In this document: positions 247 through 6,528 of the stretch, piece by piece
Position numbering within the stretch: the stretch's first letter is position 1
How the letters are laid out: every line of letters begins with the position of its first letter
Assembly (NCBI GenBank): GCA_964359945.1
Contig: CAYHUM010000001.1
Span: 1-57,795, forward strand
Length of the DNA stretch: 57,795 nucleotides
Reading direction: 5' to 3'
Source of the DNA: Candidatus Woesearchaeota archaeon
GTDB taxonomy: Archaea; Nanobdellota; Nanobdellia; SCGC-AAA011-G17; CAYHUM01
Program-made: the position numbers and the translations under genes
Notes under the pieces: generated by a model
What the model saw: only the letters and a program-made list of their open reading frames with translations
The model's database searches: none
What the model was told of the DNA's origin: nothing

Positions 247-390
247 TTATACTTCTTTAAATTTAGACATTTGTTTTATTATTGCTTGATGTATAAAATC
301 AACTTCATCTTGAAACATATTAGTTTTTTTAACTAAAACTCTTATGCTTTCCATTAAAGGCTTGGGTAATTGAATAGTTTCATGTTCCAT
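247..390 (-). CDS. 47-aa hypothetical protein, possibly ribbon-helix-helix (CopG-like)
   Basis: Hand translation: MEHETIQLPKPLMESIRVLVKKTNMFQDEVDFIHQAIIKQMSKFKEV. It is below the ORF-track size cut-off. Its stop at 247..249 is 1 nt from the downstream ATG at 245. The fold assignment is only suggestive. Confidence 0.35.
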   Translation of the reverse strand: MEHETIQLPKPLMESIRVLVKKTNMFQDEVDFIHQAIIKQMSKFKEV

Positions 391-402
391 TTTAAGACCT
401 CC

Positions 403-633
403 TTATTTTGGGTTTTTTAATGTTAATGTTATTATAAATAATATTAAGATTAAAGCAATTAATATATAAAACATTCTCTTGTCATTAGCAAATCCAAATG
501 GAATAAACCCTATAAAACCTCCTACTGCAACTTTAGTGTTTTCTTGCTTAGAAGTAAAAGAACTAATAATTATAAAAATAACCCCAATCATTATTAAAGA
601 AAGACCTATAATGAATGGAATTTGATTATTCAT
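403..633 (-). CDS. small two-TM membrane protein (DUF131 / TIGR00304-like)
   Basis: 76-aa ORF with two hydrophobic helices flanking GGFIGFIPFGFANDKR, which resembles the GG-IGPIPI-FG core of archaeal DUF131 proteins. It overlaps the upstream gene by 4 nt. Confidence 0.5.
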   Translation of the reverse strand: MNNQIPFIIGLSLIMIGVIFIIISSFTSKQENTKVAVGGFIGFIPFGFANDKRMFYILIALILILFIITLTLKNPK

Positions 634-923
634 TTTTCATGAAGTTTTATATATTCTTTAACTTGTTTCTCGAAACCATAAATTGAATGTCCAAAAGGTA
701 TAAGTAAATCAATATTTAAATTTTCTAAGCCTACTGGTAAATCACATATTCCATAATTAGTAGACATCCATATGAGACATTTAGCATCTGTATTTTTTTC
801 TATAAAATTAACTATTTCTGTAGCTTTATTTTTTAAACCATCTGGTAATTGAATACATACCAATTTAGCTTTTTCTTCTTTAATTTTAGATATTACTTTG
901 TCTAATTCTAAGTCATAATTCAT
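630..923 (-). CDS. dph2: diphthamide synthase Dph2, N-terminal domain only (split gene, part 1)
   Basis: From the internal ATG (923..921): MNYDLELDKVISKIKEEKAKLVCIQLPDGLK...STNYGICDLP. This is the Dph2 N-terminal signature, including the first Fe-S cysteine (YGxCD). The track start at 971 is a TTG that abuts the divergent ATG at 972. The ORF stops after about 97 aa, where domain 2 should begin. Confidence 0.65.
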   Translation of the reverse strand: MNYDLELDKVISKIKEEKAKLVCIQLPDGLKNKATEIVNFIEKNTDAKCLIWMSTNYGICDLPVGLENLNIDLLIPFGHSIYGFEKQVKEYIKLHEK

Positions 924-944
924 AAGAATAGTATGGAAAACAGG

Positions 945-953
945 TTTTATAAA
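945..953. promoter_or_regulatory. near-palindromic TATA-like element (TTTTATAAA) between divergent genes
   Basis: It lies 19 nt upstream of the plus-strand ATG at 972 and 22 nt upstream of the minus-strand ATG at 923. This spacing matches other TATA-to-ATG distances in the window. Confidence 0.3.
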
Positions 954-971
954 CTTTCTCCTTAAAACCAA

Positions 972-2282
972 ATGAAAAAATTTATAAGAGCATTATTTAT
1001 ATACTTTGTAATGAAAAAACATAAGGAGCATAGTCTTTTAAAAGGCAGTTTAATATTATTAATTGCTACTATTTTAACTGGAATATTACAATATTTATTC
1101 TTTTCATATATAGCTAGAAAACTAGGACCTGAAAAATATGGAGAAGTTATAGCTTTATTATCTATTTATTTTATAGCTGTAATAGCGAGTGGAGCTATAA
1201 ACTCATTATTAGTAAGGTTTGTTACTTATTTTAAATCTAGAAGTCAATACGATAAAATTAATAGATTATTTAAGAATTCATTTAGATTATTTTTATTAGT
1301 GGGATTTTTAGTTTTCTTAATAATTCTTGTTTTAAGTCCAGGAATAAGTGCTTTGTTTAAAATAGATTCTGTAATTCCAGTATTAATTCTAGGATTATTT
1401 ATTTGGGTCTTTTTTGTTTTAACTATTTTTATAAGCATCTTAAATGGACTACAGAAATTTACTGAAATTGGATATGTAAGAGTAGTTGGTTCATTATTAT
1501 ACTTAATTTTTGCTGTAATTTTTATTCCTATAGGCTTAGGTGTTAATGGAGCAATGTTAGCTTTGTTTTTAGGGACTTTTTTAAGTATCATTCCTTCATA
1601 TAGATCTCTAAAGGATTTAGTTTCTATAAAATCTACTGATATAGGTAAAAGTGAAATTTATAAGTATACTATTCCAGTAGCAGTTACTTCTTTAATATTA
1701 GCTTTGATGTTTAGTTTAGATGTTATTTTAGTTAAAGCTTTTTTTAGTAAAATTAATGCTGGTTATTATGGAGCAGCTTCATTACTTGCTAAAATAATTT
1801 ACTTTGCTTCTTTTTCTATAATAACTGTTTTATATCCTAAAGTAAGTGAATTAAGTTTTAATGGTAAAGACCCTTCTAGATTATATAGAAATAGTATTAT
1901 ATATACATTTTTAATATCAGCATTTGTTACTACAGCTTATTTTATCAATCCAGAATTCTTTGTGAATTTATTATTTGGACATGAATATCAAGTTTCACAT
2001 ATTCTTGGGCTATATGCATTAGCTATTAGTTTATTTTCATTGATTAGTGTTATTGTTGTTTATAATTTAGCTATAAAAGATTATAGATTCATGAAGTTTT
2101 TATTACCATCTTTTATTTTAGAGTTTATTTTGATAATTTTATTCCATAGATCATTAATGCAAATTGTTATAATCTTAAATATTGTTATGGGACTATTGTT
2201 TTTATGTTTAGTTTATATAGATAGACATGAATTTAAGAAATTATTTAAATTTAGAAGTAAAAGTAGATTTAAATTATCATAA
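972..2282 (+). CDS. polysaccharide/oligosaccharide flippase (Wzx/MOP superfamily) membrane protein
   Basis: 436 aa, polytopic and hydrophobic throughout. The N-terminal LLKGSLILLIATILTGILQYLFFSYIARKLGPEKYG resembles Polysacc_synt family starts. Confidence 0.6.
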   Translation: MKKFIRALFIYFVMKKHKEHSLLKGSLILLIATILTGILQYLFFSYIARKLGPEKYGEVIALLSIYFIAVIASGAINSLLVRFVTYFKSRSQYDKINRLFKNSFRLFLLVGFLVFLIILVLSPGISALFKIDSVIPVLILGLFIWVFFVLTIFISILNGLQKFTEIGYVRVVGSLLYLIFAVIFIPIGLGVNGAMLALFLGTFLSIIPSYRSLKDLVSIKSTDIGKSEIYKYTIPVAVTSLILALMFSLDVILVKAFFSKINAGYYGAASLLAKIIYFASFSIITVLYPKVSELSFNGKDPSRLYRNSIIYTFLISAFVTTAYFINPEFFVNLLFGHEYQVSHILGLYALAISLFSLISVIVVYNLAIKDYRFMKFLLPSFILEFILIILFHRSLMQIVIILNIVMGLLFLCLVYIDRHEFKKLFKFRSKSRFKLS

Positions 2283-2594
2283 AATTCTTACTTCTTTTAG
2301 ATTTACATCATCGCCATCATTTACTTTTGGTATGGAATTACATCTTGGACAAGAGAATAATGTATAATCTGAACCTTTTTGTAAAATTTTTGCTGGTCCT
2401 TCATAACCACATGTACAAGATACATCAGAAGTTTTATTTTCTATTTCTATTCTCCAATTAGTTTTTTCTCTTAATAATGATTGTATTTCTACTGTATTTA
2501 ATGGAAAAAGTTCACCTACTTCTAGTTTTATTGCAGTAACTTTTCCGTGTTTTTTAGCTTCCTCAATTATATCTTCTATTATTATTTCATGCAT
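2277..2594 (-). CDS. HypA-like zinc-ribbon metallochaperone family protein
   Basis: The MHE N-terminus, a CxC (CTC) plus CPRC zinc-site arrangement and the 105-aa length match HypA/HybF architecture. Confidence 0.5.
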   Translation of the reverse strand: MHEIIIEDIIEEAKKHGKVTAIKLEVGELFPLNTVEIQSLLREKTNWRIEIENKTSDVSCTCGYEGPAKILQKGSDYTLFSCPRCNSIPKVNDGDDVNLKEVRIL

Positions 2595-2595
2595 T

Positions 2596-4086
2596 TTATA
2601 TTATTTTACCTAATTTTTTTAATTCTACTCCAGATAAAAATTTGTTTATAGTTTGTTTTAAATCTTGTAAAGAAATTCTTATTTGTTTCATAGTTGTAAT
2701 ATCACGAAGAGTAACTGTATTATCATTTAAAGTTTGATGATCTATAGTAATCATTGCCGGAACCCCAATTTCATCTACACGTCTATACATTCTTCCTATG
2801 CTACCAGAATAATCAGATATAACTTTATAATCATTCTTTAATAAGTTGTAAACTTCAGTAGCTTTTTCTGGTAATCCATCTTTATTTACTAAAGGAAATA
2901 CTGCTACTTCTACAGGAGCTATTGTAGATGGGAATAAAAATAAAGTTCTATCTTTTTCTTCTTTATAAAAAATATCCATTAATGCCCAAATGTTTCTGTC
3001 TATACCAAAGCTTATTTCAAGGACATGAGGAATAAACTTTTTGTTATTATAAAAAACTTCCAGACTTTCATTGCTTGCTTGTTGATGATTTATTAAATCG
3101 TAATTTGTTCTATAATGTAACCCTGAAACTTCCTTAAATCCATCTAAAGTTTCCATGTCTAATTCAATGTCAAAATGAATTGTGTTGTAGAATGCTTTTT
3201 CTTTTTCTGATAATTGTCTAAATCTAAATTTTTCCTTAGGTATTTTTAATGAATCTAAATAAAATTGTTGTATTTTTGCAAGATAATATATATAAAATTT
3301 AGGTATATTATTTTTATTTAAATCATTACATGAAATTTCTTTTACTTTTTTTTCTTTTTCTAATAAAACTTGCAATTTGTAGTTCTCTATTTCTTTCCAA
3401 GATTCATGTTCATTTAGTTTGTCTGGATCAAAGAAAATTTGAAGTTCTGCTTGTATAAATTCTCTTAGCCTAAAAAAACCTTGTCTTGGGCTTATTTCAT
3501 TTCTAAAAGCTTTTCCTATTATAGCTAATCCCATAGGTAATTTTTCTCTTAATGCTGAAAATTCACGTTTAAAACTTAAATAAGAATTTTGAGCTGTTTC
3601 AGGACTTAAATAACCTAATTCATTACCGGTTGCTCCAATCTTTACATCAAACATCATATTAAAGAATTTTACAGGCATTAATTCTGATTTACAATTAGGA
3701 CATTTTATTTTATTTTCTTTTATTAAGGATGTAAGTTCTTTTTCATCTAGAGCAACAACTTTTTTACCTATTTTTTCTTCTATTAAATCATCTGCTTTAT
3801 ACCTTATATGACATTTATTACATTCTGTTAAAGGATCATTAAAGTTTTTTAAATGACCAGATGCCTGAAATACTTTTTCTGGTAAAATATCAGATCCCTC
3901 AATCTCATAAAAATTAGGATTTAATTTTAAGAAATAGTTACGCCATAGATTTTCAAATTTATTCTTCATTAATTTTCCTAGATGACCATAAGTCCAAAAT
4001 CCTGCTTTAGTATTATAGATTTCAGCTGTAGGGAAGAAAAATCCTCTTTTAGTAGCTATATTCATTATATTTTCAGATTTATTCAT
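2596..4086 (-). CDS. glyS: glycine--tRNA ligase, archaeal/eukaryotic-type class II
   Basis: KRGFFFPTAEIYNTKAGFWTYGHLG at the N-terminus. The motif-2-like segment is GKAFRNEISPRQGFFRLREFIQAELQIF. It has a CxxC...CxxC insertion and a C-terminal anticodon-binding-like region. Confidence 0.9.
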   Translation of the reverse strand: MNKSENIMNIATKRGFFFPTAEIYNTKAGFWTYGHLGKLMKNKFENLWRNYFLKLNPNFYEIEGSDILPEKVFQASGHLKNFNDPLTECNKCHIRYKADDLIEEKIGKKVVALDEKELTSLIKENKIKCPNCKSELMPVKFFNMMFDVKIGATGNELGYLSPETAQNSYLSFKREFSALREKLPMGLAIIGKAFRNEISPRQGFFRLREFIQAELQIFFDPDKLNEHESWKEIENYKLQVLLEKEKKVKEISCNDLNKNNIPKFYIYYLAKIQQFYLDSLKIPKEKFRFRQLSEKEKAFYNTIHFDIELDMETLDGFKEVSGLHYRTNYDLINHQQASNESLEVFYNNKKFIPHVLEISFGIDRNIWALMDIFYKEEKDRTLFLFPSTIAPVEVAVFPLVNKDGLPEKATEVYNLLKNDYKVISDYSGSIGRMYRRVDEIGVPAMITIDHQTLNDNTVTLRDITTMKQIRISLQDLKQTINKFLSGVELKKLGKII

Positions 4087-4125
4087 ATATTTAAAAGAAA
4101 TAATTTAGTTTATATGTTTTTTGTT

Positions 4126-4767
4126 TTAAAGAACACCAGCACCATAAATCTCATTAATATCAATTATTTTCTTACCTTCTATTCTTGCACATGCAGTATT
4201 TACCCAGTATTCAATATCAGGGAAATTTTCAAAGTCAAGTTCACTAACATTATTTGTAATAAAGATATGAGATTCTTTTTTATCTTTAAGTAATTCTTTT
4301 AATTCAAGAGCTTTTTTAAGATTTTGTTGTCCTGGTTTTACAGAAACTATAATACCTACTTTTTTAGAATTTAAGAATTTTAGTAATCTGCCTTTACCTC
4401 TTCTTTCCTCTACCTCAATGTCTTTTGGATCTAGTAAAACTATTTTATTATCATAAGGATTAGCCATATAAACATTTTTCTTGGTTTTAAATGAAACTTC
4501 TAGGGGATGAAATCTTCCTGAACCAATATACAAAAAAGCATCTACGTCTTTATTTATTTTTACAGCATTAGTTGCATTACATCCAATTACTTGTCCACCT
4601 AATACAATTTCATGACTAGGAAGTGCTTTTTTAATATCATCAATTGCATGTAAAAATTGTATAGTTGTAACTACCCCAAGTTTTTTCTCAGAGAATTTAT
4701 ATTTACTTAATTTATTTAAGAAATCTTGATCAAAATTAGATTTAGCTTGTACTATGAATAATTTCAT
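4126..4767 (-). CDS. dph2: diphthamide synthase Dph2, domains 2-3 only (split gene, part 2)
   Basis: GGQVIGCNAT and WVNTACARI match the second and third Fe-S cysteines of Dph2. The 213-aa protein lacks the N-terminal domain, which is encoded at 630..923. Confidence 0.75.
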   Translation of the reverse strand: MKLFIVQAKSNFDQDFLNKLSKYKFSEKKLGVVTTIQFLHAIDDIKKALPSHEIVLGGQVIGCNATNAVKINKDVDAFLYIGSGRFHPLEVSFKTKKNVYMANPYDNKIVLLDPKDIEVEERRGKGRLLKFLNSKKVGIIVSVKPGQQNLKKALELKELLKDKKESHIFITNNVSELDFENFPDIEYWVNTACARIEGKKIIDINEIYGAGVL

Positions 4768-5285
4768 TTTTTTAATTTTTCAACTATGGCTTTTTCTGAT
4801 ATTATGGCAGAATTTCCATTAGGATCTTCTATAATAATCTTTAATGGAATATCTCCACATTCAACTTTCCATATTTTTTTAAGTAAATTCTTTGCATTTT
4901 GTCTTGTTTCATCATCTTCTGCAGAATCACGCTCAGCTTCTAATATTTTTTTGATTCTATTTAGTACACCTTCAATATTACTTATGTAACCTTCAGATGC
5001 AGCTCCTGGTTCAATAGTAATTTTAAGTTGAGGTATTTTTACAGTAGCTGTAGATGATTTAACTATACGAACATTAAGGTCTTTTGTATTTTCTACAGTA
5101 AATGTATATCTTGAAGGTTCTTTTGATTCTGATAACTCAATATCACTTTCTTTAAAATCACAATTTGAACATTCCATAGAAAATATAAAGACTTTTCCAA
5201 AGTAAGGAATATCTTGTTCATCCTCTGTCAAACTTAAAGTTTTCCCTCTGCATACAGGACAAGTTTCGTTTTTAATTTGATTCAT
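4764..5285 (-). CDS. ZPR1-type zinc-finger protein
   Basis: From the internal ATG (5285..5283): MNQIKNETCPVCRGKTLSLTEDEQDIPYFGKVFIFSMECSNCDFKESD, which is the ZPR1 C4 finger plus beta-rich domain. The longer track ORF (to 5384) would overlap sepF. Confidence 0.75.
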   Translation of the reverse strand: MNQIKNETCPVCRGKTLSLTEDEQDIPYFGKVFIFSMECSNCDFKESDIELSESKEPSRYTFTVENTKDLNVRIVKSSTATVKIPQLKITIEPGAASEGYISNIEGVLNRIKKILEAERDSAEDDETRQNAKNLLKKIWKVECGDIPLKIIIEDPNGNSAIISEKAIVEKLKK

Positions 5286-5320
5286 AAAATAAAATAGAAA
5301 AAATAAATTTATAAAAGTTT

Positions 5321-5710
5321 TTATTGGGGAGCAGGAACTTGTTCGCGATAGATATTGGCAAAGGATGGAGTAACAACAAGCCAATCATCACCAAAACCAG
5401 CTATATCTCCCTCAATAGCATCGCATGTTTTCTTTAATTTATTTACTGCCCTTTTAAGTTCAACTATATCTTTTTCCTTTAATGGTCTTATATTAAGTAA
5501 AGCTATAGTATAACCTTCACGTAATGCATCTATAGGATGTTTTATATCAGCGAAGTCTTCTATGATAAATGGCCTTATAGTAATTTTTGATTTAAGGCCA
5601 GCCTCAACTTTAGTATCAAGCTCAACAAAATCCTCTGAGAAATCATAATCATCCTCTGATTTGAATGTCTTAATTATACTCTCTTTTATTTTTCTGAATG
5701 TATCCTTCAT
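5321..5710 (-). CDS. sepF: cell division protein SepF (DUF552)
   Basis: IRPFIIEDFADIKHPIDALREGYTIALLNIRPL...DIAGFGDDWLVVTP is the SepF core. AAGAGGT lies upstream of the ATG. Confidence 0.75.
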   Translation of the reverse strand: MKDTFRKIKESIIKTFKSEDDYDFSEDFVELDTKVEAGLKSKITIRPFIIEDFADIKHPIDALREGYTIALLNIRPLKEKDIVELKRAVNKLKKTCDAIEGDIAGFGDDWLVVTPSFANIYREQVPAPQ

Positions 5711-5787
5711 TTTTTACCTCTTTTGTGTTATAATACAATAAATATATAAACATTTCTATTTATCATTGTGTTCATGAGTTAGTAGTA

Positions 5788-6060
5788 TTACTTTATTGAT
5801 TCTAGTTTTGTTACTATATGCCATATTTGTGTTCTGGTGTAACTTGGAATGTTTTGATTGTCTGAAATTTCATCTATTTGCTGTAAAGCTTTATTTATTT
5901 TTATGGCTAAATCATGATTATTATCCTTTAAAGCTTCTCCAGCCTCTTTTATCTTTATTCTTACGTTTCTAGGAACAGACAAGTCATTTTCAATTTGATC
6001 TAGAAATTCAATAACCTCAAGAAGATGTGGTTCATAAATGTCTAGTATAGGTGCCTTCAT
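5788..6060 (-). CDS. UPF0147 family protein
   Basis: LDQIENDLSVPRNVR...QQIDEISDNQNIPSYTRTQIWHIVTKLE matches the archaeal UPF0147 pattern (VPRNIR ... HTRT-IW). Confidence 0.6.
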   Translation of the reverse strand: MKAPILDIYEPHLLEVIEFLDQIENDLSVPRNVRIKIKEAGEALKDNNHDLAIKINKALQQIDEISDNQNIPSYTRTQIWHIVTKLESIK

Positions 6061-6389
6061 TTTTTTAATTCCTTCATTACTTCTGATTGTATCTCATTTG
6101 CTTTTTCTTTAAGCTTATCTTCTTGCTTTTCTAGATTTTTTATTCTTATATTTAAAATTTCCCTTTTTGATTCAAGATCTTTTTTTACTTCTACTTTATT
6201 AGAACTAACCATTATAGAGCCAACAATTCTATAAATAGGTTCTTTTGCAGAGTCTAATTCAGAAATAGCATTTTCAATTTCAAATAATTTATTTTGGAAA
6301 GTTTGTTTTTGAAGTAAGAAATTTTGGACGTTTTGTTCAATTAATTGTAATTGTGAAATTTTATCTTGAGTTTCTTTACTTGGTTTCAT
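6057..6389 (-). CDS. pfdB: prefoldin subunit beta
   Basis: 110-aa coiled-coil / beta-hairpin / coiled-coil layout (QLQLIEQNVQ...YRIVGSIMV...LEKQEDKLKEK). It sits in the conserved L37Ae-RpoP-prefoldin neighbourhood. Confidence 0.8.
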   Translation of the reverse strand: MKPSKETQDKISQLQLIEQNVQNFLLQKQTFQNKLFEIENAISELDSAKEPIYRIVGSIMVSSNKVEVKKDLESKREILNIRIKNLEKQEDKLKEKANEIQSEVMKELKK

Positions 6390-6390
6390 T

Positions 6391-6528
6391 TTACACTGCT
6401 TTTACTTTAGTGTTTACTACTCTAGATTTAAATAATATTTTAGATCCACAATATGGACATCTAATCTTTTTCTTAGTATATTCTTCCTTTATAAGTTTAT
6501 TGCAATTGAAGCATTTATAATTTACCAT
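6391..6528 (-). CDS. rpoP: DNA-directed RNA polymerase subunit P (Rpo12)
   Basis: Hand translation: MVNYKCFNCNKLIKEEYTKKKIRCPYCGSKILFKSRVVNTKVKAV. It has CxxC...RCPYCGSKI and ends in VKA-like residues. At 45 aa it is missed by the ORF track. Confidence 0.75.
   Translation of the reverse strand: MVNYKCFNCNKLIKEEYTKKKIRCPYCGSKILFKSRVVNTKVKAV

What the first reader, a model, noticed from the sequence alone, without database searches (positions are those of the whole stretch)
630..4767. Diphthamide synthase Dph2 encoded as two separated ORFs, with domain 1 apart from domains 2-3
ORF 630..923 encodes only the Dph2 N-terminal domain: YDLELDKVISKIKEEKAKLVCIQLPDGLK ... NYGICD, with the first cluster cysteine. 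ORF 4126..4767 encodes only the remainder, with GQVIGCN and NTACARI as the second and third cluster cysteines. The two give about 97 and 213 aa, which together roughly equal a normal archaeal Dph2. They are on the same strand but 3.2 kb apart. GlyRS, a HypA-like gene and an opposite-strand flippase lie between them, and the C-terminal piece is upstream of the N-terminal piece. Because the [4Fe-4S] cluster of this non-canonical radical SAM enzyme is ligated by one Cys from each domain, a functional enzyme would need the two polypeptides to assemble in trans. Split genes are a hallmark of highly reduced nanoarchaeal-type genomes.
Basis: partly seen in the sequence, partly recalled or inferred. 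Interest (0 to 1): 0.6.

Follow-up and report, generated by a model that had tools for sequence, protein, structure and literature searches.

The report
Split diphthamide synthase gene, already known
This small Woesearchaeota-type (DPANN) archaeon encodes the diphthamide-synthesis enzyme Dph2 as two separate, intact, conserved genes that together make one complete enzyme, a real arrangement that has already been published for this group of archaea.

Summary
ORF 630-923(-) is Dph2 domain 1 with the first cluster cysteine. ORF 4126-4767(-) is domains 2-3 with the second and third cysteines. The two join without a gap or overlap at the domain 1/2 boundary.

The 772-kb genome (95% complete) has no full-length dph2. 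It does have dph5, dph6 and an EF-2 carrying the target His motif HEDAIHRGPAQ.

The same split recurs in about 30 of 40 genomes of the same order and in most of 300 genomes of the class. Both halves are under purifying selection (dN/dS 0.05-0.13). Each half folds alone into the matching part of solved Dph2 structures.

It is not new. Split Dph1/2 in DPANN was reported by Podar 2013, Narrowe 2018 and Dombrowski 2019. This scan has also noted it on other DNA (148 notes, at least 137 genomes).

Side observations that I did not find in those papers:
- All split C pieces form one clade.
- Some Nanoarchaeia keep the two halves adjacent, N first.
- The C piece sits in a conserved ZPR1-Dph2C-GlyRS string.
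- Unsplit relatives carry a divergent full-length dph2 in that same slot on the opposite strand.

The parts
630..923 (-). dph2-N: stand-alone Dph2 domain 1 (97 aa from ATG 923; in-frame TTG at 971 is unlikely to be the start). It carries the first [4Fe-4S] cysteine in YGICD (Cys60 of the 97-aa form, Cys76 of the 113-aa form) and the invariant GH at the end of the domain.
   Evidence: PF01866 positions 1-57 and TIGR00322 positions 1-84. Aligns to 6q2d residues 6-88. 345 stand-alone homologues of 79-98 aa exist in public data. AlphaFold pLDDT 78; best Foldseek hits are Dph2 domain 1, TMq 0.67-0.73. C, D, G and H are invariant in 21 genomes.
4126..4767 (-). dph2-C: Dph2 domains 2-3 (213 aa). It carries the second cysteine (GQVIGC, Cys63) and the third (NTACARI, Cys193), plus the conserved Arg195. 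It is about 25-40 residues shorter at the C-terminus than full-length archaeal Dph2, as in the whole split clade.
   Evidence: PF01866 positions 67-271 and TIGR03682 positions 81-274. Aligns to 6q2d residues 96-296, and to 3lzc Cys199 and Cys323, which are PhDph2 Cys163 and Cys287. pLDDT 90; Foldseek TMq 0.82-0.84 to M. smithii Dph2. Alignment.
4764..5285 (-). ZPR1 zinc-finger homologue. Its stop overlaps the dph2-C start by 4 nt (ATGA). It is the conserved upstream partner of dph2-C. The TTG at 5384 listed by the ORF finder is probably not the start.
   Evidence: TIGR00340 at 2.1e-53 and PF22794/PF03367. Sequence. ZPR1 lies directly upstream of dph2-C in 18 of 20 relatives, often with the same 4-nt overlap.
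2596..4086 (-). Glycyl-tRNA synthetase (class II), the conserved downstream neighbour of dph2-C. It is not part of the enzyme.
   Evidence: PF00587 and PF03129. GlyRS lies downstream of dph2-C in 18 of 20 relatives.
2277..2594 (-). HypA-like zinc-ribbon protein lying between the two dph2 pieces. It was not found at this position in the relatives.
   Evidence: PF01155 at 3.5e-8. No hits in relatives' loci.
972..2282 (+). Polysaccharide-biosynthesis (MOP/Wzx-type) flippase, divergent from dph2-N.
   Evidence: PF01943 at 6.7e-17.
945..953 (.). Palindromic TTTATAAA(A) element in the 48-bp gap between the flippase ATG (972) and the dph2-N ATG (923). It lies about 22-26 nt from each start. It is a possible bidirectional archaeal TATA box for leaderless transcripts; this is inference only.
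   Evidence: Read directly from the sequence. No promoter tool for archaea was available, and the genome is 75% A+T, so chance is not excluded.
403..633 (-). 76-aa two-helix membrane ORF (weak DUF131 match). Its start overlaps the dph2-N stop by 4 nt (ATGA).
   Evidence: PF01998 at 0.0019, below cut-off. The same ORF lies directly downstream of dph2-N in G001, G016 and G026. Sequence.

Best explanation
This is a genuine gene fission of archaeal Dph2, the 2-(3-amino-3-carboxypropyl)histidine synthase that carries out the first, radical-SAM step of diphthamide synthesis on EF-2. One gene (630-923, minus strand) makes domain 1 with the first cluster cysteine. The other (4126-4767, minus strand) makes domains 2-3 with the other two cysteines. 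The most likely mechanism is that the two polypeptides associate non-covalently to rebuild one Dph2 protomer. Its [4Fe-4S] cluster would then be ligated by one Cys from each of the three domains, and so would bridge the two chains. By analogy with homodimeric archaeal Dph2, the protomers would pair into an (N.C)2 complex that transfers the ACP group of SAM to the His of HEDAIHRG in EF-2. Dph5 and Dph6 would complete the pathway. Shown here: complementarity of the halves, intact catalytic residues, conservation, purifying selection, and presence of the pathway. Inferred: physical association, cluster binding and activity.
For: The profile coverage of the two halves is complementary and non-overlapping, and both exceed the Pfam cut-off. 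They align to residues 6-88 and 96-296 of solved M. smithii Dph2. All three Cys motifs are present and invariant in 21 genomes of the order, and two of them map to PhDph2 Cys163 and Cys287. The genome holds no other dph2. It does hold dph5, dph6 and aEF-2 with HEDAIHRGPAQ. The same split, with N at profile positions 1-58 and C from about position 60, occurs in about 30 of 40 genomes of the order. These include single-contig genomes with the halves 158-490 kb apart. It also occurs in most of 300 genomes of the class. dN/dS is 0.045 (N) and 0.125 (C) for G006 versus G033, and 0.12 and 0.08 for G039 versus G014. Each half folds on its own into the matching part of Dph2. The literature reports two-gene Dph1/2 in DPANN.
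Against: There is no direct evidence of association, cluster binding or activity, and no multimer prediction was possible with these tools. Neither piece, nor the sum of both (52.8 + 129.3 bits), reaches the TIGR03682 equivalog cut-off of 202.8 bits. The split clade also lacks about 25-40 C-terminal residues of canonical Dph2. The N-piece model is least confident around the Cys loop and at residues 79-82, as expected if it needs its partner, though this is also compatible with a poor model.
Confidence: 0.87

Rival explanations
1. The two ORFs are decaying remnants of a broken dph2, and the organism no longer makes diphthamide.
For: Some archaea are known to lack dph genes altogether (PMC6143161). 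The two pieces are not co-transcribed, and the C-terminus is shorter than in canonical Dph2.
Against: Both ORFs are intact in every one of 21 genomes examined, with invariant Cys, GH and R residues and dN/dS of 0.05-0.13. Hundreds of stand-alone N pieces exist in public data. dph5, dph6 and the target His of EF-2 are retained.
Confidence: 0.03
2. The halves have become functionally independent. The C piece would work alone, or as a homodimer with a cluster held by two Cys plus another ligand. The N piece would have taken on another role, for example with its conserved small membrane-protein neighbour.
For: The two genes are dispersed and have different neighbours. The C piece is translationally coupled to ZPR1, and the N piece to a small membrane ORF in 4 of 21 genomes.
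Against: The cluster Cys and the GxCD and GH motifs of the N piece stay invariant, which is hard to explain for a non-Dph2 role. N and C pieces co-occur: most genomes with a C piece also have an N piece, and genomes with a full-length gene have neither, G200 being the one exception.
Confidence: 0.07
3. A single polypeptide is restored after transcription or translation (trans-splicing by a split intein, or RNA-level joining), or the split is an assembly artefact.
For: Nanoarchaeum equitans joins its split DNA polymerase halves by a split intein and joins tRNA halves at the RNA level (own knowledge; tRNA halves listed in PMC3655853).
Against: The pieces have no room for intein halves. The N piece ends 2-18 residues after the domain, and the C piece starts directly with the next strand. 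The split occurs in closed or single-contig genomes (G001, G033), and adjacent two-gene forms have ordinary stop and start codons. Here the C piece lies upstream of the N piece, so read-through cannot join them.
Confidence: 0.03

Closest known systems
Two-gene (NTD + CTD) Dph1/2 of DPANN archaea (Narrowe et al. 2018, PMC6143161; summarised by Dombrowski et al. 2019, PMC6349945; Nst1 genes Nst222/Nst440 in Podar et al. 2013, PMC3655853)
   Same: It is the same phenomenon: separate genes for the N-terminal and C-terminal parts of Dph2 in Woesearchaeota, Pacearchaeota, Parvarchaeota, Altiarchaeota and a nanoarchaeon. The window's C piece lies in one clade with Woese-, Pace- and Altiarchaeales C pieces.
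   Different: Nothing essential differs. The passages of these papers that I read (term searches) do not give the breakpoint, selection, synteny or structure; I did not read the papers in full. In this genome the halves lie unusually close (3.2 kb), with the C piece upstream.
Canonical homodimeric archaeal Dph2 (P. horikoshii 3LZC/3LZD, Ca. Methanoperedens 6BXM, M. smithii 6Q2D with EF-2)
   Same: Same fold (TMq 0.82-0.84 for domains 2-3 and about 0.7 for domain 1), the same three cluster cysteines, and 31-37% identity.
   Different: It is one 320-345-aa chain, against two chains of 97 and 213 aa here. The split form lacks a roughly 9-residue insert before GQVxGC and about 25-40 C-terminal residues.
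Eukaryotic Dph1-Dph2 heterodimer
   Same: The enzyme is built from two different polypeptides of the same family (own knowledge).
   Different: The eukaryotic subunits are two full-length three-domain paralogues that arose by duplication. Here a single three-domain protomer is cut between domains 1 and 2.
Split protein genes of Nanoarchaeum equitans (reverse gyrase, AlaRS, RNA polymerase B and others; listed in PMC3655853)
   Same: Dispersed gene halves in a reduced DPANN genome, cut between domains and presumed to assemble in trans.
   Different: They are different proteins. N. equitans itself lacks Dph2.

Membership tests
Dph2 / Diphthamide_syn (PF01866, arCOG04112) | Significant match to the family profile above the curated cut-off | tested here: met
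   PF01866 gives 39.5 bits (N) and 128.2 bits (C) against a cut-off of 33.2. TIGR00322 gives 74.1 and 122.7 bits against a cut-off of 35.
Dph2 / Diphthamide_syn (PF01866, arCOG04112) | Equivalog-level score to archaeal Dph2 (TIGR03682, cut-off 202.8 bits) | tested here: inconclusive
   The scores are 52.8 bits (N) and 129.3 bits (C). Each is a fragment, and even their sum (182) falls below the cut-off. The model was built for one-chain proteins with the C-terminal extension.
Dph2 / Diphthamide_syn (PF01866, arCOG04112) | Three conserved cysteines, one per domain, that ligate the [4Fe-4S] cluster (PhDph2 Cys59, Cys163, Cys287) | tested here: met
   The motifs are YGICD in N, and GQVIGC and NTACARI in C. 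They are invariant in 21 genomes. The C-piece cysteines fall on 3lzc residues 199 and 323, which are Cys163 and Cys287 after removing the 36-residue tag. The N-piece cysteine aligns with the GACD of 6q2d and 6bxm.
Dph2 / Diphthamide_syn (PF01866, arCOG04112) | Three-domain alpha/beta fold of Dph2 | tested here: met
   Separate AlphaFold models were made. For the C piece (pLDDT 90) and for the N piece (pLDDT 78), the top 15 Foldseek PDB hits are all Dph2, covering domains 2-3 and domain 1 respectively.
Dph2 / Diphthamide_syn (PF01866, arCOG04112) | Pathway context: substrate EF-2 with the target His, plus Dph5 and Dph6 | tested here: met
   dph5 scores 243.6 bits. dph6 is one gene cut by two contig ends, with overlapping sequence. 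aEF-2 scores 969.6 bits and carries HEDAIHRGPAQ.
Dph2 / Diphthamide_syn (PF01866, arCOG04112) | SAM-dependent ACP transfer to EF-2 by a [4Fe-4S] enzyme | not testable with these tools
   This needs biochemistry.
Split (two-gene) Dph1/2 of DPANN archaea | Separate genes for the N-terminal and C-terminal parts, and no full-length copy in the genome | tested here: met
Split (two-gene) Dph1/2 of DPANN archaea | Host is a DPANN archaeon | tested here: met
   The genome is 772 kb with about 27% G+C. The nearest C and N pieces come from records named Ca. Woesearchaeota, Nanoarchaeia and Nanoarchaeota. The window's own record name is not shown.
Split (two-gene) Dph1/2 of DPANN archaea | Common descent with other split Dph2 genes | tested here: met
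   All 51 split C pieces form one clade with SH-aLRT 97, in a quick IQ-TREE run on domains 2-3. The root is not resolved.

The most novel reading that the evidence does not exclude
The fission happened once, early in DPANN. Several Nanoarchaeia still keep adjacent N|C gene pairs as the intermediate stage. In Woesearchaeales, the conserved ZPR1-[dph2]-GlyRS slot acts as an exchangeable cassette. It holds either the co-oriented split C piece or, on the opposite strand, a divergent full-length dph2 of a separate clade. The patchy mix of split and unsplit genomes within single families would then reflect in-situ replacement by recombination between the conserved flanks, not repeated fission or fusion.
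Probability: 0.35. Interest if true: 0.35.

Novelty: already known. Interest (0 to 1): 0.15.

Why it matters
The split itself is a published peculiarity of DPANN genomes, so this window adds another instance and not a discovery. It matters in three practical ways. First, Dph2 is used as a single-copy marker for genome completeness, and a split gene miscounts. Second, annotation pipelines call the halves truncated, hypothetical or partial. Third, it offers a natural test of whether a radical-SAM [4Fe-4S] site can be built across two polypeptides, which nobody appears to have tested biochemically. The side observations could support a small evolutionary study of how gene fission proceeds and is reversed. 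These are the single clade of split forms, the surviving adjacent N|C intermediates, and a shared ZPR1-GlyRS slot occupied by either the C piece or an inverted full-length gene.

Tried and rejected
- **Single-protein scan.** A related-loci scan of genome contigs with the C piece found no relatives. The alignment-based scan did.
- **Pairwise dN/dS.** The first script timed out. I redid it from one codon alignment. Only two genome pairs had unsaturated dS, so the selection estimate rests on few comparisons.
- **PhDph2 domain boundaries.** A literature search for the published boundaries returned nothing relevant. The statement that the break lies at the domain 1/2 boundary therefore rests on the alignments to solved structures and on the separate folds, plus my own knowledge of the Zhang et al. 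2010 structure.
- **Heteromer prediction.** This was not possible. Structure prediction folds single chains only and accepts only unaltered sequences, so I did not submit a concatenated N+C chain.
- **Split intein or read-through joining.** Considered and rejected on length, stop/start codons and gene order.
- **Proximity as a fission remnant.** I considered whether the 3.2-kb proximity of the halves is a relic of in-situ fission. I rejected this because the order here is C then N, whereas the adjacent forms are N then C. In relatives the halves lie on different contigs or 158-490 kb apart.
Full report
**Observation**

The window is A+T-rich (about 25-30% G+C). It is contig C1 of a 772-kb, 60-contig genome estimated to be 95% complete. 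Two minus-strand ORFs sit at the stated coordinates.

- The ORF at 630-971 gives 113 aa from TTG, or 97 aa from the ATG at 923. It matches only the first 57 positions of Pfam Diphthamide_syn (PF01866, 39.5 bits, cut-off 33.2) and positions 2-68 of 308 of the archaeal Dph2 model TIGR03682.
- The ORF at 4126-4767 (213 aa) matches PF01866 positions 67-271 (128.2 bits) and TIGR03682 positions 81-274.
- Against the solved M. smithii enzyme (6q2d, 337 aa), the N piece covers residues 6-88 and the C piece residues 96-296.

The real start of the N piece is almost certainly the ATG at 923. Relatives begin with the equivalent MEYDLELEK, and the public gene call is the 97-aa form.

**Are the pieces complementary and intact?**

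I aligned the N and C pieces of 21 genomes of the same order on five full-length Dph2 proteins from unsplit relatives.

- Every N piece ends a few residues after the conserved ..DLLIxFGH.
- Every C piece starts (MKxxFIxAK) with the very next strand of the full-length protein, so nothing is lost at the joint.
- The first cluster cysteine (G-x-C-D) is in the N piece. The second (GQVxGC) and third (NTAC[PA]RI) are in the C piece.
- All three cysteines are invariant in the 21 genomes, together with the GH at the end of domain 1 and R195 after the third Cys.
- Counting along the alignment to the P. horikoshii chain (3lzc, which carries a 36-residue tag) puts the two C-piece cysteines on Cys163 and Cys287. 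That these are the known cluster ligands is my own knowledge of the Zhang et al. 2010 structure.
- The split C pieces lack a roughly 9-residue insert before GQVxGC and about 25-40 C-terminal residues of canonical Dph2. This is a feature of the whole split clade and not damage in this genome.

Folded separately from alignments of public homologues, each piece resembles the matching part of Dph2. The C piece gives a confident model (pLDDT 90). Its 15 best PDB matches are all Dph2, with TMq up to 0.84 and rmsd 2.4 A. The N piece gives a moderate model (pLDDT 78, weakest around the Cys loop). Its 15 best matches are all Dph2 domain 1.

- The genome contains no other PF01866 match, so there is no full-length copy.
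- The rest of the pathway is present. dph5 is on C8 (243.6 bits). dph6 is one gene cut by two contig ends whose sequences overlap. aEF-2 carries the target motif HEDAIHRGPAQ.

**Conservation**

In 40 relatives of the same order, every genome has Dph2. About 30 show the same two-piece pattern, with N at profile positions 1-58 and C from about position 60. The pieces lie on different contigs or far apart, for example 187 kb versus 678 kb on the single contig of G001. Five genomes have an uninterrupted full-length gene and no pieces.

In a 300-genome sample of the class:
- 297 genomes have a match.
- About 26 have a full-length gene.
- Six have N and C adjacent.
- The rest show only the partial matches.

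Names on public records of the nearest C and N pieces are Ca. Woesearchaeota, Nanoarchaeia and Nanoarchaeota, with Pacearchaeota and Altiarchaeales IMC4 further out. There are 345 stand-alone N pieces of 79-98 aa in the protein collection.

For the two genome pairs with unsaturated synonymous change, dN/dS is 0.045 and 0.12 for the N piece, and 0.125 and 0.08 for the C piece. Both halves are therefore maintained by selection, which excludes decaying fragments.

**Mechanism**

The best-supported reading is non-covalent assembly. The 97-aa domain 1 docks on the 213-aa domains 2-3 and rebuilds a Dph2 protomer. The [4Fe-4S] cluster, held by one Cys from each domain, bridges the two chains. By analogy with homodimeric archaeal Dph2, the result would be an (N.C)2 complex that transfers the 3-amino-3-carboxypropyl group of SAM to the EF-2 histidine.

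Covalent rejoining is unlikely. Neither piece has room for intein halves, and adjacent forms have ordinary stop and start codons. Here the C piece lies upstream of the N piece, so read-through cannot join them. Association, cluster binding and activity are inferred.

**Known or new?**

The phenomenon is published.
- Podar et al. [quoted passage not shown] - Narrowe et al. [quoted passage not shown]
- Dombrowski et al. 2019 list Parv-, Pace-, Woesearchaeota and Altiarchaeota (PMC6349945).

This scan has also met the split many times before on other DNA: 148 notes in at least 137 genomes, and the follow-ups shown reach the same verdict. The finding is therefore correct but already known.

**Side observations**

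I did not find these in the passages of those three papers that I read.

1. A quick maximum-likelihood tree of domains 2-3 (106 rows) puts all 51 split C pieces in one clade (SH-aLRT 97). This clade includes Pacearchaeota and Altiarchaeales. All 24 Woesearchaeal full-length proteins form a separate clade (SH-aLRT 100). Relations to Bathyarchaeia and Methanosarcinaceae are unresolved. The window's C piece scores better against those outgroups (1e-27 to 1e-32) than against Woesearchaeal full-length Dph2 (1e-11 to 1e-21).
2. Seven Nanoarchaeia genomes keep N and C as adjacent genes, N first and 0-60 nt apart. This is a plausible intermediate stage.
3. The C piece sits in a conserved string: Zn-ribbon(RpoP-like)-prefoldin beta-UPF0147-SepF-ZPR1-Dph2C-GlyRS. 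The ZPR1 stop and the Dph2C start often overlap by 4 nt, as they do here.
4. In 30 of 48 loci with the Woesearchaeal full-length gene, that gene lies in the same ZPR1/GlyRS slot but on the opposite strand. None of 32 outgroup loci has these neighbours.
5. One genome (G200) has both a full-length gene and a split C piece on one 1.0-Mb contig.

Together these suggest a single old fission followed by dispersal, and later replacement within a shared slot. The tree is a quick one and unrooted, so this remains a hypothesis.

**Local details**

- The N piece is separated from the divergent flippase gene by 48 bp. This gap contains a palindromic TTTATAAA about 22-26 nt from both ATGs, a possible bidirectional TATA box. 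This is inference only, in a genome that is 75% A+T.
- The N-piece stop overlaps the start of a 76-aa membrane ORF with a weak DUF131 match. The same ORF follows the N piece in three other genomes.

Noticed in passing
window 4126-6528, and loci L021-L059: A conserved gene string, all on one strand: RpoP-like Zn ribbon (6391-6528), prefoldin beta (6057-6389), UPF0147 (5788-6060), SepF (5321-5710), ZPR1 (4764-5285), Dph2-C, GlyRS. ZPR1 and Dph2-C overlap by ATGA in many genomes. This links a ZPR1 homologue (by my own recollection, a chaperone of elongation factor eEF1A in eukaryotes) with an EF-2-modifying enzyme.
   Followed up: partly
L003-L007 and L141-L188 (unsplit Woesearchaeota relatives): The full-length dph2 of unsplit relatives occupies the same ZPR1/GlyRS slot as the split C piece, but on the opposite strand (30 of 48 loci). 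It belongs to a separate clade of the gene tree. The window's C piece scores higher against Bathyarchaeia and Methanosarcinaceae Dph2 than against these full-length proteins.
   Followed up: partly
L223-L228 (G186, G158, G119, G210, G185, G172) and L139: In these Nanoarchaeia genomes the Dph2 N and C pieces are adjacent genes, N first and 0-60 nt apart. They are possible intermediates of the fission.
   Followed up: partly
L221 and L222 (G200, one 1.0-Mb contig): One genome carries both a Woesearchaeal-type full-length dph2 and a split-type C piece, with a third match that is probably the N piece. The two forms are therefore not strictly exclusive.
   Followed up: partly
window 403-633 (-) and 247-390 (-): A 76-aa two-helix membrane ORF (weak DUF131 match) overlaps the dph2-N stop by 4 nt and recurs downstream of dph2-N in G001, G016 and G026. 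A 47-aa ORF (MEHETIQLPKPLMESIR...) recurs nearby in G018, G026 and G027. Earlier notes of this scan also mention a small membrane gene beside split dph2 halves.
   Followed up: partly
window 945-953: A palindromic TTTATAAA is centred in the 48-bp divergent gap between the flippase ATG (972) and the dph2-N ATG (923), about 22-26 nt from each. It may be a bidirectional TATA box for two leaderless mRNAs.
   Followed up: no
window 2277-2594 (-): A HypA-like zinc-ribbon protein (PF01155 at 3.5e-8, far below the NCBIfam equivalog cut-offs) in a 772-kb DPANN genome. It was not found at this position in relatives. I did not check whether the genome has any hydrogenase or urease.
   Followed up: no
G000 contigs C41/C53 and C18/C32: dph6 and aEF-2 are each cut by contig ends. 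The dph6 halves share DIQYLLSIKPNRTDCY. These are assembly breaks and not gene splits, and they could be mistaken for further split genes.
   Followed up: yes
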